64,000 nt of DNA from Promethearchaeota archaeon (GTDB taxonomy: Archaea > Asgardarchaeota > Lokiarchaeia > Sigyniarchaeales > SOKP01). The stretch is from contig JAHLWP010000006.1 of NCBI GenBank assembly GCA_019057865.1, positions 89,955-153,954 of the forward strand. Direction: 5' to 3'. Below are positions 11,407-22,719 of this stretch, piece by piece (within the stretch, counting starts at the first letter, position 1; every line of letters starts with the position of its first letter). The position numbers and the translations under genes are program-made. The notes under the pieces were generated by a model that worked only from the letters and a program-made list of their open reading frames with translations, ran no database searches and was not told the DNA's origin.

Positions 11407-12016
11407 ATGGGAAGAAGAAAAAGGAAACAGCCAACATATAAAAGAGTTAAAAAAGTACCCAAAATTTTCACCTGCCCGGAATGACGAGATCGACTACTGA
11501 TTTCTCCCTGAATGTGGTGAAAAAAGTGTAAAAGTTACTGATATAAAAAAGAAGGGTGCTTTTGCTACAGTAAAATGTGGGAATTGTGGATTAACCCAGG
11601 AAGTATTAGTGAATGCAATTTCAGAACCAGTAGATGCTTTTGGAGATTTTATAGATATTCATTATGCAGATCAAGAACTCTTGAGATTAGAAAAAAGAGT
11701 TGCAAAATTGAAAGAAGAAGGTGAATGGGGTGAACTTGCATTTGCTTACTCTATATTGTCGGATCTTTGCAGAACGAAAGCAGCACTGTTATTAGAGGAA
11801 GATAATATCGATATGGACAAAGTTAATGACTGGAAAATGAAAGCTGAACAATATAAAAAGCTTAAAAAGGATGCTTTATTGAAACTTGATACAGAAGAAT
11901 TAGAACGAGGTGTTAGAACAGATGAAGAGTCCTTATTTGCTGAAAGTGAAACAAAAATAAAGAAGGAGCGAAAAATAGAAGATATCTTTGATGATCCAGG
12001 ATTTTTAGAATTTTAA
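11407..12016 (+). CDS. elf1: Transcription elongation factor Elf1 with C-terminal extension, split by a 31-nt insertion (exons 11407-11481 and 11513-12016; 192 aa when joined)
   Basis: Exon 1 reads MGRRKRKQPTYKRVKKVPKIFTCPE. Exon 2 reads CGEKSVKV...ATVKCGNCGL...SEPVDAFGDFID. Joined, they give the Elf1 pattern MGRRK...FTCPxC...CxxC...EPVDxY/FxxFID. Confidence 0.9.
11482..11512 (+). other. Putative bulge-helix-bulge (tRNA-type) intron in elf1 mRNA
   Basis: The 31-nt insert TGACGAGATCGACTACTGATTTCTCCCTGAA starts with an in-frame stop and shifts the frame. Two AAU bulges (11480-82, 11511-13) flank a 4-nt central helix CCGG/CCUG with one mismatch. There is an exon stem UUUUCACC/GGUGAAAA and an internal intron hairpin. 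Confidence 0.8.
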
Positions 12017-20781: not shown

Positions 20782-22266
20782 ATGAAATTTAAGATGAATG
20801 TTAATAAGATTGAAGAAAATATTTATGAAATAGCTCCTAAAACTTTAATGGTACGAATTCGAGGGAAAATTGAAAAATTTCAGATGAATGTACCAGTTCA
20901 TATATACGCTAATGATTATATTTTAGAAAAAATAAGATCAGATCGAACTTTAGATCAAATTACTAATGTTGCATGTTTATCTGGGATACAGAAGCACGCT
21001 ATTGCACTTTCAGATGCTCATCAAGGATATGGATTTTGTATTGGAGGAGTTGCAGGTACAGACGCAGAAGATGGTATGATTTCTCCTGGGGGTGTAGGTT
21101 ATGATATAAATTGTGGTGTAAGATTATTAAGATCTAATTTAATGCTTAATGATGTTCGAAATATACTTCCAAGTTTATTAAATACAATATTTAAAAATAT
21201 TCCTTCAGGATTAGGATCTAAAGGTAAATTAAATATTAGTTATTCAGATTTAGATAATGTTTTAAACGATGGAATGAATTGGGCTCTAGATAAAGGCTAT
21301 GCAAATGAAGAGGACCTTAAACATTGTGAAGAAGAGGGTTGTTTAATGGGTGCTGATGCCAAATTAATATCCCAAAAGGCTAAACAACGAGCAATTAAAC
21401 AGCTTGGATCATTAGGAAGTGGAAATCATTTTCTTGAGATTCAAAAAGTTGATGAAATCTATAACGAAAAGATCGCTAAAGAGCTAGGAATCATTAAGAA
21501 AAATCAGATCACTATTATGATACATACGGGAAGTAGAGCTTTAGGACATCAAGTTTGTACAGATTCCCTACGGAACATTGAACAGGCAATGCATAAATAT
21601 AATGTTAAGGTTCCAGATAGAGAATTAGCTTGTGTTCCAGCGAATACTCCTGAAGCAAAAAATTACTTGTCTAGTATGGCATGTGCGGCTAATTTTGGCT
21701 TTACTAACCGTCAATTAATTACTCATTGGATAAGAGAATCGTTTCAAAATTCATTTAAAAAAGATTTTGATGCATTAGATTTACATTTAATTTATGGTGT
21801 ATGTCATAATATTTTAAAGATAGAAGAACATGAAATTAATGGTAAAAAAATGAAATTGAACGTGCATCGAAAAGGGGCAACAAGAGCATTTCCCCCAGGA
21901 CATCCAGATTTATCTAATGATTATAAATCGATAGGACAACCTGTTTTAATTCCGGGAACGATGGGTTCTGCTTCATATTTATGTGTTGGTAAACCAAAAG
22001 CTATGGATCTCTCATTTGGTTCTACTGCTCATGGTTCTGGAAGAATGATGTCAAGAACAAAAGCTAAAAAAAAATATTGGGGTACACAAGTAAAAGAGGA
22101 CTTAGCAAAAAAAGGAATTTTAGTAAAAAGCGCTTCAATGAAGATATTAGCGGAAGAAGCGCCTGGAGCATATAAAGATATTGACCAAGTTGTACAAGTC
22201 AGTCATAATCTTGAAATTATTGAAAAGATTGTCAAACTAGTTCCTATAGGTGTAGTGAAGGGTTAA
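20782..22266 (+). CDS. rtcB: RNA-splicing ligase RtcB
   Basis: DAHQGYGF, GYDINCGVR, GNHFLE, HTGSR, HRKGAT, HGSGR and EEAPGAYK motifs. Confidence 0.97.
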   Translation: MKFKMNVNKIEENIYEIAPKTLMVRIRGKIEKFQMNVPVHIYANDYILEKIRSDRTLDQITNVACLSGIQKHAIALSDAHQGYGFCIGGVAGTDAEDGMISPGGVGYDINCGVRLLRSNLMLNDVRNILPSLLNTIFKNIPSGLGSKGKLNISYSDLDNVLNDGMNWALDKGYANEEDLKHCEEEGCLMGADAKLISQKAKQRAIKQLGSLGSGNHFLEIQKVDEIYNEKIAKELGIIKKNQITIMIHTGSRALGHQVCTDSLRNIEQAMHKYNVKVPDRELACVPANTPEAKNYLSSMACAANFGFTNRQLITHWIRESFQNSFKKDFDALDLHLIYGVCHNILKIEEHEINGKKMKLNVHRKGATRAFPPGHPDLSNDYKSIGQPVLIPGTMGSASYLCVGKPKAMDLSFGSTAHGSGRMMSRTKAKKKYWGTQVKEDLAKKGILVKSASMKILAEEAPGAYKDIDQVVQVSHNLEIIEKIVKLVPIGVVKG

Positions 22267-22281
22267 AATCTTTAATTTGAA

Positions 22282-22719
22282 TTAAATATCAAAAACAATA
22301 TTTATTTTGACTTTATTCTTTTTTTCTTCAATATCCATAAAAGAATATGTTATTGCTTTTACTTCTGTTCCAATTTTATGTTTTTTCTTATCAAATTTCT
22401 CTCCTTTTAAAAGTGCCTGTAATTTATATCTGTTTTTGCTTTTTTTAATTGTTTGTACTATTATATCACCAAATACTAAATCATAAACATCAAATAAATA
22501 AAGAAATTCAGAAAGGAAATCAAAGAGCAAGGCTTCTTTATCTTCTGCTTCAATTTGAATTTTTTTTTCTATTTTTGGTGAAATTTGGTCTAAATCTGGA
22601 GTAATAGTAGTCATTAAACTTAGAGCTGTTTGAGAAAAAGCCTCCTCTAAATTAGAACCCCAACTCTTGACACTCACATCTGCGGTATGATCTAGAAACT
22701 TAAAACCTACTTGTTTCAT
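22282..22719 (-). CDS. Archease, RtcB cofactor
   Basis: DHTAD, EVKAITY and terminal FDI motifs; convergent with rtcB. Confidence 0.95.
   Translation of the reverse strand: MKQVGFKFLDHTADVSVKSWGSNLEEAFSQTALSLMTTITPDLDQISPKIEKKIQIEAEDKEALLFDFLSEFLYLFDVYDLVFGDIIVQTIKKSKNRYKLQALLKGEKFDKKKHKIGTEVKAITYSFMDIEEKKNKVKINIVFDI

What the first reader, a model, noticed from the sequence alone, without database searches (positions are those of the whole stretch)
11407..12016. elf1 is split by a 31-nt bulge-helix-bulge element: candidate tRNA-type intron in an Asgard protein-coding mRNA
Seen: Elf1 starts at ATG 11407 and hits TGA right after FTCPE. The rest (CGEKSV...CGNC...EPVDAFGDFID) continues 31 nt later in another frame. 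The RNA can fold as follows. Exon stem: 11465-72 UUUUCACC with 11516-23 GGUGAAAA, plus G11474-U11515 and C11475-G11514. Central helix: CCGG (11476-79) with CCUG (11507-10), one C.U mismatch. Bulges: AAU at 11480-82 and AAU at 11511-13 on opposite strands. Intron hairpin: GA(C)GAGAUCG / UGAUUUCUC with loop ACUAC. Established: archaeal EndA cuts after the second nucleotide of each bulge and RtcB with archease ligates. That rule removes exactly 11482-11512 and restores CPE|CG in frame, giving 192 aa. The archaeal mRNA introns of this type that I know are those in crenarchaeal cbf5. Inference: Elf1 synthesis here depends on spliceosome-independent splicing. Unspliced RNA yields only a 25-aa peptide, so this could be an on/off switch, conceptually like RtcB-ligated XBP1 splicing. 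I cannot verify novelty without a literature search.
Basis: partly seen in the sequence, partly recalled or inferred. Interest (0 to 1): 0.95.

Follow-up and report, generated by a model that had tools for sequence, protein, structure and literature searches.

The report
tRNA-type mini-intron splitting archaeal elf1
A 31-base insert that breaks the gene for transcription elongation factor Elf1 in this Lokiarchaeial (Asgard) genome has the RNA shape cut by the tRNA-splicing enzyme and is conserved with compensatory changes in many relatives, so it is very probably a real intron in a protein-coding mRNA, a kind published so far for only one archaeal gene (cbf5).

Summary
elf1 (ATG 11407) hits TGA after FTCPE. 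The rest of the protein resumes 31 nt later in the +1 frame. Removing 11482-11512 restores the CPEC zinc knuckle and gives a 192-aa Elf1.

The RNA folds as a slightly relaxed bulge-helix-bulge: 3 of 4 central pairs, two AAU bulges, a 10-pair exon-exon helix and an intron hairpin.

New evidence from relatives:
- An insert of 28-32 nt sits at the same codon in 32 of 73 distinct elf1 alleles, across two divergent clades of this Lokiarchaeial family. The other alleles are uninterrupted.
- Intron sequences differ but keep the structure. Six pairs change on both sides, including an exon synonymous site paired with an intron base.
- All intron-bearing genes give intact ORFs, and their pN/pS (0.12) equals that of intronless genes.
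- The gene tree needs at least 12 gains or losses. The nearest relative (97% identical) has no intron.
- The genome encodes two EndA subunits, RtcB and archease.

Frameshifting, translational bypassing, pseudogene and misassembly are disfavoured.

Direct RNA proof is missing; the public RNA contigs were ambiguous. The on/off-switch idea has no support.

No paper found reports this, but this scan has already noted elf1 introns in other Asgard genomes and similar inserts in other genes of this genome.

The parts
11407..11481 (+). elf1 exon 1 (25 codons, MGRRKRK...KIFTCPE; first half of the first zinc knuckle)
   Evidence: Pfam PF05129 profile positions 1-26. The same N-terminus occurs in uninterrupted orthologues.
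11482..11512 (+). 31-nt bulge-helix-bulge intron. It starts with an in-frame TGA and shifts the frame by +1.
   Evidence: A homologous 28-32-nt insert lies at the same codon in 32 of 73 distinct alleles. Covariation.
11513..12016 (+). elf1 exon 2 (167 codons plus stop: CGEKS...CGNC...EPVDAF, then a long C-terminal tail)
   Evidence: Pfam PF05129 positions 28-76, E = 1.3e-9. pN/pS = 0.12 among intron-bearing alleles.
11465..11475 (+). 5' strand of the exon-exon (outer) helix, UUUUCACC-U-GC, with U11473 bulged
   Evidence: 99.4% of cells paired in 16 distinct sequences. Synonymous sites are kept complementary when the intron is present.
11476..11479 (+). 5' strand of the central 4-bp helix (CCGG, in exon 1)
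   Evidence: pair 11478:11508 is AU in 13, UA in 2 and GC in 1 of the distinct sequences. Position 11477:11509 is a mismatch in 12 of 16.
11480..11482 (+). 5' bulge AAU; predicted cut between 11481 and 11482
   Evidence: Unpaired. The rule of cutting between the second and third bulge nucleotide is in PMC12397907.
11483..11506 (+). Intron hairpin (inner helix GA-C-GAGAUCG / UGAUUUCUC, loop ACUAC)
   Evidence: Five of its nine pairs change on both sides among relatives.
11507..11510 (+). 3' strand of the central helix (CCUG, in the intron)
11511..11513 (+). 3' bulge AAU; predicted cut between 11512 and 11513
11514..11523 (+). 3' strand of the exon-exon helix (GU-GGUGAAAA)
20782..22266 (+). RtcB RNA ligase gene (the joining enzyme), about 9 kb downstream
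   Evidence: PF01139 at 561 bits at C75:110910-112217. ORF.
22282..22719 (-). Archease gene (RtcB cofactor), convergent with rtcB
   Evidence: PF01951 at 151 bits at C75:112239-112658. ORF.

Best explanation
The 31 nt at 11482-11512 are a tRNA-type (bulge-helix-bulge) intron inside the elf1 coding sequence. In the pre-mRNA, exon 1 pairs with exon 2 (outer helix). Four exon-1 bases (CCGG) pair with the 3' end of the intron (central helix). The rest of the intron forms a hairpin. This leaves two AAU bulges on opposite strands, 4 bp apart. The heteromeric EndA of this organism cuts between the second and third base of each bulge, and RtcB with archease joins the exons. The join recreates CCG-GAA-UGU-GGU (CPEC) and an mRNA for a 192-aa Elf1; the intron is probably released as a circle. 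Shown: the anatomy, its conservation with compensatory changes, selection on the interrupted genes, and the presence of the enzymes. Inferred: that cutting and joining actually happen, and at those bonds. The intron is best seen as a tolerated, evolutionarily unstable passenger that is gained and lost many times. Precise loss is easy because GAAUG is repeated at both ends. It is unlikely to be a dedicated regulator.
For: (1) Geometry. The minimum-energy fold gives the exon helix, both 3-nt bulges and the hairpin, z = -3.2. The bulges lie 3' of each central strand, as in pre-tRNA introns at position 37/38. The published cutting rule (PMC12397907) restores the frame and the CPEC knuckle.
(2) Recurrence. 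The same codon carries a 28-32-nt insert in 32 of 73 distinct alleles from many independent MAG projects. After removal every one gives an intact 191-193-aa ORF. Applying the cutting rule gives at least 3 of 4 central pairs in 27 of 28 distinct sequences.
(3) Covariation in 16 distinct sequences of the genus. 90.5% of cells are paired against 45-51% when partners are slid. Six pairs change on both sides (1 of 500 shuffles reaches this). The exon Pro third position pairs with an intron base as AU13/UA2/GC1.
(4) Exon synonymous sites keep the outer helix when the intron is present: 9.66 versus 8.61 of 10 pairs. In 12 phylogenetically independent pairs the trait goes the same way about 6 times and the other way essentially never (median p = 0.03).
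(5) pN/pS is 0.123 with the intron and 0.120 without.
(6) Machinery. Two EndA-domain genes fit the broad-specificity (alpha-beta)2 enzyme reported for Asgard (PMC5829648). RtcB and archease are present. ARAGORN predicts introns in 18 of the 30 tRNA genes it finds, so the pathway is in heavy use.
Against: No direct RNA evidence. The only public contigs that skip 31 nt (one RNA run, and one run labelled RNA but probably DNA) place the joint at 11474/11506 and carry mismatches. They may therefore come from intronless relatives. The central helix has only 3 of 4 pairs in this genome, and in most relatives the second position is a C.U or C.C mismatch. An alternative 3-bp register pairs about as often. 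No EndA of this lineage has been tested on such a substrate.
Confidence: 0.85

Rival explanations
1. Programmed translational bypassing (ribosome hopping, as in phage T4 gene 60 or yeast mitochondrial byps). The peptidyl-tRNA leaves GAA at 11479-81, next to the UGA stop and a hairpin. It lands on the identical GAA at 11510-12 and gives the same protein without any RNA cutting.
For: In this genome the take-off and landing codons match (GAA/GAA), a stop follows take-off, and a hairpin lies in the gap.
Against: The match is not conserved. Take-off/landing are GAA/AAA in L038, L043 and L051, GAA/GAU in L060, and AAU or AAC versus GAU throughout the second clade. In that clade the stop is not always adjacent. 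What is conserved is the helix-bulge geometry, including pairing of exon bases with intron bases, which hopping does not need.
Confidence: 0.04
2. The insert is removed from the RNA by something other than EndA/RtcB, such as another nuclease and ligase or an unrecognised self-processing element.
For: Splicing has not been observed, and the central helix is imperfect.
Against: The bulge positions predicted by the EndA rule give the right product in both clades. 31 nt is too small for known self-splicing introns. Nothing else in the sequence suggests a ribozyme.
Confidence: 0.05
3. The gene is inactivated (a pseudogene or a mutation in progress), and Elf1 function is dispensable or supplied elsewhere.
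For: Unspliced, the gene encodes only 25 aa. Close relatives carry intact genes.
Against: All 32 interrupted alleles keep intact exons. pN/pS is 0.12, the same as in intact genes. The insert keeps its structure through compensatory changes. No second Elf1 gene was found in this genome with the exon-2 query or the Pfam family.
Confidence: 0.03
4. Assembly artefact, or a population mixture in which an intronless DNA allele is the expressed one.
For: A contig 98-99% identical to the window but lacking the 31 nt exists in a run that is probably DNA. One MAG (G004) holds both an interrupted and an intact copy.
Against: The insert occurs in more than 25 independent assemblies from different studies and with different sequences. 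A coexisting intronless strain does not explain the conservation of structure.
Confidence: 0.02
5. +1 ribosomal frameshifting at the UGA joins the two frames.
For: Exon 2 is in the +1 frame relative to exon 1.
Against: The +1 frame has its own stop inside the insert: TGA at 11498-11500 here, and GAG-TAG in most relatives. The product would also carry extra residues inside the zinc knuckle.
Confidence: 0.01

Closest known systems
BHB intron in the cbf5 (pseudouridine synthase) pre-mRNA of Crenarchaeota (Watanabe et al. 2002; Yokobori et al. 2009, PMC2738675)
   Same: A short intron inside a protein-coding sequence with bulge-helix-bulge ends. It is removed by the tRNA-splicing endonuclease in organisms with the broad-specificity heteromeric EndA. 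It shows lineage-specific presence and secondary loss.
   Different: A different gene (elf1) and a different phylum (Asgard, Lokiarchaeia). Turnover is far higher here: at least 12 changes within one family, against about two losses reported for cbf5. Splicing of cbf5 was shown experimentally; here it is inferred.
BHB intron in the 5' UTR of Haloferax volcanii HVO_1309 mRNA (PMC7714728)
   Same: An mRNA substrate of the archaeal splicing endonuclease.
   Different: That intron lies in the untranslated leader and does not interrupt the reading frame. It was confirmed in vivo and in vitro.
[quoted passage not shown]
   Same: The same motif and predicted enzymes, a similar size range, and repeated gain and loss at sites able to form a BHB.
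   Different: The host RNA is an mRNA. The outer helix is built from coding sequence (KIFTC / CGEK codons), not a tRNA stem.
IRE1/RtcB splicing of XBP1/HAC1 mRNA in eukaryotes
   Same: Spliceosome-independent removal of a short intron that changes the reading frame, with RtcB as ligase in metazoa.
   Different: That cut is made by IRE1 at twin stem-loops under stress control. Nothing here indicates regulation, and the cutting enzyme is unrelated.
Translational bypassing elements (T4 gene 60; mitochondrial byps of Magnusiomyces)
   Same: A short non-coding gap with a stop after the take-off codon and a hairpin. In this genome the flanking codons match.
   Different: Codon matching is not conserved among relatives, whereas the RNA pairing of exon with intron is.

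Membership tests
Archaeal bulge-helix-bulge (EndA-dependent) intron | Two 3-nt bulges on opposite strands separated by a 4-bp helix | tested here: met
   AAU at 11480-82 and 11511-13 are unpaired in the fold. The central helix 11476-79/11507-10 has 3 of 4 pairs (a relaxed form). At least 3 of 4 pairs are seen in 27 of 28 distinct relatives and 4 of 4 in three.
Archaeal bulge-helix-bulge (EndA-dependent) intron | Flanking helices on both sides (h and h') | tested here: met
   The outer exon-exon helix has 10 pairs with one bulged U. The inner hairpin has 9 pairs with one bulged C. Cells paired are 99.4% and 88.2% among relatives.
Archaeal bulge-helix-bulge (EndA-dependent) intron | Cutting between the second and third bulge nucleotide yields a functional product | tested here: met
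   The rule is from PMC12397907. Applied here it gives CCG GAA|UGU GGU, the CPEC knuckle and a 192-aa ORF. The same holds in all 32 interrupted alleles.
Archaeal bulge-helix-bulge (EndA-dependent) intron | Structure maintained by compensatory substitutions | tested here: met
   Six pairs change on both sides; covariation score 0.183 against 0.103 +/- 0.012 in shuffles (0 of 500) and at most 0.068 when slid.
Archaeal bulge-helix-bulge (EndA-dependent) intron | Host encodes the splicing endonuclease, RtcB ligase and archease | tested here: met
   Two PF01974 genes (105 and 70 bits). RtcB at 561 bits. Archease at 151 bits.
Archaeal bulge-helix-bulge (EndA-dependent) intron | Spliced RNA and excised (circular) intron observed | tested here: inconclusive
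   Public RNA contigs that skip 31 nt cannot be told from intronless relatives. Only one read-mapping call was allowed.
Archaeal bulge-helix-bulge (EndA-dependent) intron | Cleavage by EndA in vitro at the predicted bonds | not testable with these tools
   This needs recombinant enzyme and a transcript.
Elf1 (Pfam PF05129, Zn_ribbon_Elf1) | Match to the family profile over its curated cut-off | tested here: met
   Exon 2 alone scores 38.5 bits (cut-off 29.8) at profile positions 28-76. Exon 1 covers positions 1-26. The uninterrupted orthologue in G012, whose coding sequence is 97% identical, scores 69 bits over positions 1-76.
Elf1 (Pfam PF05129, Zn_ribbon_Elf1) | Four-cysteine zinc ribbon CxxC...CxxC | tested here: met
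   CPEC is formed only after removal of the insert; CGNC lies in exon 2.
Translational bypassing element | Matching take-off and landing codons, conserved among homologues | tested here: not met
   They match here (GAA/GAA) but not in L038, L043, L051, L060 or the whole second clade.

The most novel reading that the evidence does not exclude
The elf1 intron is one visible member of a large population of about 30-nt introns in protein-coding genes of this Lokiarchaeial lineage. They would be spliced by EndA/RtcB and gained and lost quickly at any site whose coding sequence can form a BHB. If so, these close relatives of eukaryotes run a routine, spliceosome-independent mRNA-splicing layer. My own partial checks fit this. 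rnhB carries a 30-nt in-frame insert with a stop inside its GIDEAGRG motif. A fragmented second leuS copy has a candidate 34-nt BHB with 4 of 4 central pairs. Earlier unverified notes of this scan list cooS, acs, thiolase and other genes in the same genome.
Probability: 0.5. Interest if true: 0.92.

Novelty: new member of a known kind. Interest (0 to 1): 0.8.

Why it matters
Introns inside archaeal protein-coding sequences have been published for a single gene family (cbf5, Crenarchaeota). A second case would show three things, because it sits in a core transcription factor of Asgard archaea and is present in some species and precisely absent in their closest relatives:
- The tRNA-splicing machinery is used on mRNAs in the lineage nearest to eukaryotes.
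- Such introns turn over quickly.
- Gene callers mis-annotate these genes as truncated or split.

It also gives a simple test system for how new introns arise at sites that happen to fold correctly. The system is a 31-nt intron, a known enzyme pair, and natural intron-plus and intron-minus alleles.

Tried and rejected
- **RNA evidence.** The look-up of sequencing runs found no run holding more than 23% of the words. Read laying on four runs gave two contigs that skip 31 nt: X2 (RNA) and X3 (labelled RNA, probably DNA). The joint is placed at 11474/11506, which implies CCT rather than this genome's CCG, and there are other mismatches. These may be intronless relatives, so I do not count them for or against splicing.
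- **Spliced junction in JGI metagenome contigs**. Two long contigs (4.9 and 34 kb) matched. They look like genomic intronless alleles and are not informative about RNA.
- **Genome-wide scan for other frame-restoring BHBs**. My descriptor recovered elf1, but among about 42,000 candidates dominated by adjacent same-strand genes. There was no length peak, so the scan cannot count introns.
- **Intron copies elsewhere in the genome**. None longer than 15 nt, so the intron is not a repeated mobile sequence.
- **rnhB insert.** I confirmed the 30-nt insert but could not draw a clean canonical BHB for it.
- **Bacterial-type promoter/terminator scan**. Uninformative for an archaeon.
- **Alternative central-helix register** from the energy minimum. 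It pairs about as often but shows no covariation.
- **Rivals considered and rejected.** +1 frameshifting, bypassing, pseudogene and artefact readings; see the rival explanations.

Full report
**1. What the sequence shows**

ATG 11407 opens a frame that reads MGRRKRKQPTYKRVKKVPKIFTCPE and then TGA at 11482-84. From 11513, in the +1 frame, the sequence reads CGEKSVKVTDIKKKGAFATVKCGNCG...EPVDAFGDFID and runs to the stop at 12014-16. Pfam's Elf1 zinc-ribbon model matches exon 1 at profile positions 1-26. It matches exon 2 at positions 28-76, at 38.5 bits against a cut-off of 29.8. The two pieces are therefore adjacent parts of one domain, split inside the first CxxC knuckle. Deleting 11482-11512 gives CCG GAA TGT GGT (P-E-C-G) and a 192-aa protein.

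A +1 frameshift cannot do this, because the +1 frame has its own TGA at 11498-11500. Exon 2 has no in-frame start before GTG 11609.

**2. The fold**

The minimum-energy structure of 11460-11528 (-16.7 kcal/mol, z = -3.2, 0 of 200 shuffles as good) has four parts:
- an exon-exon helix, 11465-72/11516-23 plus 11474-75/11514-15;
- unpaired AAU at 11480-82 and at 11511-13;
- a short central helix between them;
- an intron hairpin, 11483-92/11498-11506.

The bulges lie 3' of each central strand. This is the arrangement of pre-tRNA introns at position 37/38, where exon bases pair with the 3' end of the intron. The endonuclease cuts between the second and third bulged nucleotide (PMC12397907). That rule removes exactly 11482-11512.

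The motif is slightly relaxed. The 4-bp register has one C.U mismatch. The energy minimum prefers a 3-bp register shifted by one.

**3. Relatives**

Searching 54 genomes of the genus and other genomes of the family and reading the loci gave 73 distinct elf1 alleles in the family. Record titles name them Promethearchaeota/Promethearchaeia, i.e. Lokiarchaeia; a few carry other Asgard labels.
- 32 alleles carry an insert of 28-32 nt at exactly this codon.
- These fall in two divergent clades, with knuckles CPEC/CPDC and CPNC.
- The other 41 alleles, and all nine alleles from a sister family, are uninterrupted.
- Every interrupted allele gives an intact 191-193-aa ORF once the insert is removed.

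The inserts differ widely in sequence, for example TGAGTAGATCGGATTCCGATC..., TGATAAAATTGATTCCCGAT... and AACTAAATGGATATCCCATT.... When the cutting rule is applied to each, the central helix has at least 3 of 4 pairs in 27 of 28 distinct sequences. It is a perfect CCAA/UUGG in three.

**4. Covariation**

On 16 distinct sequences of the genus (alignment A1), the BHB model pairs 90.5% of cells, against 45-51% when partners are slid by 1-3 columns. Six pairs change on both sides. The covariation score exceeds all 500 shuffles.

The most telling pair joins the third position of the exon Pro codon (11478) to intron base 11508. It is A-U in 13 sequences, U-A in 2 and G-C here. So a synonymous exon change is matched by an intron change. 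The alternative 3-bp register shows no such signal.

**5. The exons feel the intron**

The outer helix is made of coding sequence (KIFTC / CGEK), which is partly self-complementary in all alleles. With the intron present, 9.66 of 10 pairs form; without it, 8.61. In 12 phylogenetically independent contrasts, a perfect helix goes with the intron about 6 times and against it essentially never (median p = 0.03). The numbers are small, but the direction is what selection for a splicing structure predicts.

**6. The interrupted genes are functional**

pN/pS is 0.123 among interrupted alleles and 0.120 among intact ones. No second Elf1 gene was found in this genome with these queries.

**7. Turnover**

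A maximum-likelihood tree of the spliced coding sequences, with junction columns left out, needs 13 changes of intron state; 12 are forced by well-supported branches.

This genome's allele sits in a basal five-member clade of the genus in which the other four alleles are intronless. These include its sister allele at 97% identity. Its intron is recognisably homologous to, but the most divergent from, the genus consensus. This fits long vertical retention with repeated loss in sister lineages.

The counts are unrooted and come from a gene tree, so gains cannot be excluded. Precise loss has an easy route: GAATG is repeated at both intron ends (11479-83 and 11510-14), and slippage between the repeats would delete exactly 31 nt. 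This is inference. The intron has no other copy in the genome.

**8. Machinery**

- The genome has two EndA-domain genes. This fits the (alpha-beta)2 enzyme with the L1 loop reported for Asgard archaea, which is associated with relaxed BHB substrates (PMC5829648).
- RtcB (window 20782-22266) and archease (22282-22719) lie 9 kb downstream.
- ARAGORN finds only 30 tRNA genes in this 99.7%-complete genome, 18 of them with predicted introns. This agrees with a recent preprint on heavily interrupted Asgard tRNA genes (10.64898/2026.10.13.758758).

**9. Rivals**

Translational bypassing deserved a look. Here the codon before the gap and the last codon of the gap are both GAA, a stop follows, and there is a hairpin. 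However, the codon match is absent in several alleles of the genus and throughout the second clade, whereas exon-intron pairing is conserved. Pseudogene, artefact and frameshift readings fail respectively.

**10. What is missing**

There is no RNA proof. Two public contigs skip 31 nt, but they appear to come from a slightly different allele (CCT instead of CCG) and cannot be assigned to RNA of an intron-bearing strain. A search for the spliced junction in metagenome contigs found only long genomic contigs.

**11. Known or new**

In the searchable literature, the only intron inside an archaeal coding sequence is cbf5 of Crenarchaeota (PMC2738675). A BHB intron in a Haloferax 5' UTR is the only other mRNA case (PMC7714728). 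No paper combines Elf1 with BHB, and none reports Asgard mRNA introns.

Within this scan the elf1 intron has been noted before in other Lokiarchaeial and other Asgard genomes. Notes on this same genome list similar inserts in cooS, leuS, acs, thiolase and rnhB. I checked two only partly:
- rnhB has a 30-nt in-frame insert with TAG inside GIDEAGRG, but I could not draw a clean BHB for it.
- A fragmented second leuS copy has a candidate 34-nt BHB with 4 of 4 central pairs.

My own genome-wide scan was too noisy to count introns.

**12. Verdict**

This is a real, conserved, structured insert and very probably an EndA/RtcB-spliced intron (0.85). It is a new member of the cbf5-type class, with unusually fast gain and loss. 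The regulatory-switch idea is unsupported.

Noticed in passing
G000 contig C75:81539-82168 (minus strand; about 8 kb before the window start), locus L135:1441-2190: rnhB (RNase HII, 156 bits) carries a 30-nt in-frame insert with a TAG stop inside the catalytic GIDEAGR|GPVLGP motif. It contains a 7-bp hairpin and its flanking exons pair, but I could not place a canonical 4-bp central helix.
   Followed up: partly
G000 contig C49:5023-7935 (loci L137, L140) and C1:28378-31242 (L136): There are two leuS genes. One is intact on C1 (936 bits). One on C49 is broken into at least four frame-shifted pieces. My scanner finds a 34-nt candidate BHB with central helix GCGU/GCGC (4 of 4) at C49:5683, between two of the pieces. 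The two copies may be paralogues or may reflect the 5% contamination of the MAG.
   Followed up: partly
whole genome G000: ARAGORN detects only 30 tRNA genes in a 99.7%-complete genome, 18 of them with predicted introns. Two of the predicted introns are 876 and 1582 nt. Many tRNA genes are probably missed because of non-canonical or multiple introns.
   Followed up: no
window 20782-22719: rtcB and archease are adjacent and convergent, about 9 kb downstream of the intron-bearing elf1. This is probably coincidental linkage.
   Followed up: no
window 11660-12013 and orthologues (L001-L030): Elf1 in this family and its sister family is 190-207 aa, with a long charged, helix-like C-terminal tail. 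In most other Asgard families searched, the open frame holding the Elf1 domain is only about 80-120 aa.
   Followed up: no
G004:C171:3803-4303 and G004:C94:40890-41390 (L019, L060): One MAG of the genus holds both an intronless and an intron-bearing elf1 copy (78-81% identical to the query). With 9% contamination this is probably two strains binned together.
   Followed up: no
G012:C7:29687-30121 and G041:C48:11083-11562: Some relatives have a second, divergent Elf1-like gene (46-49% identity) about 13 kb from the main one. No such copy was found in this genome with the same query.
   Followed up: no
window 11421-11721, run X3: A public contig 98-99% identical to the window lacks the 31 nt and seems to read CCT for CCG at the Pro codon. 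It is either a very close intronless strain or spliced RNA of a close relative.
   Followed up: partly
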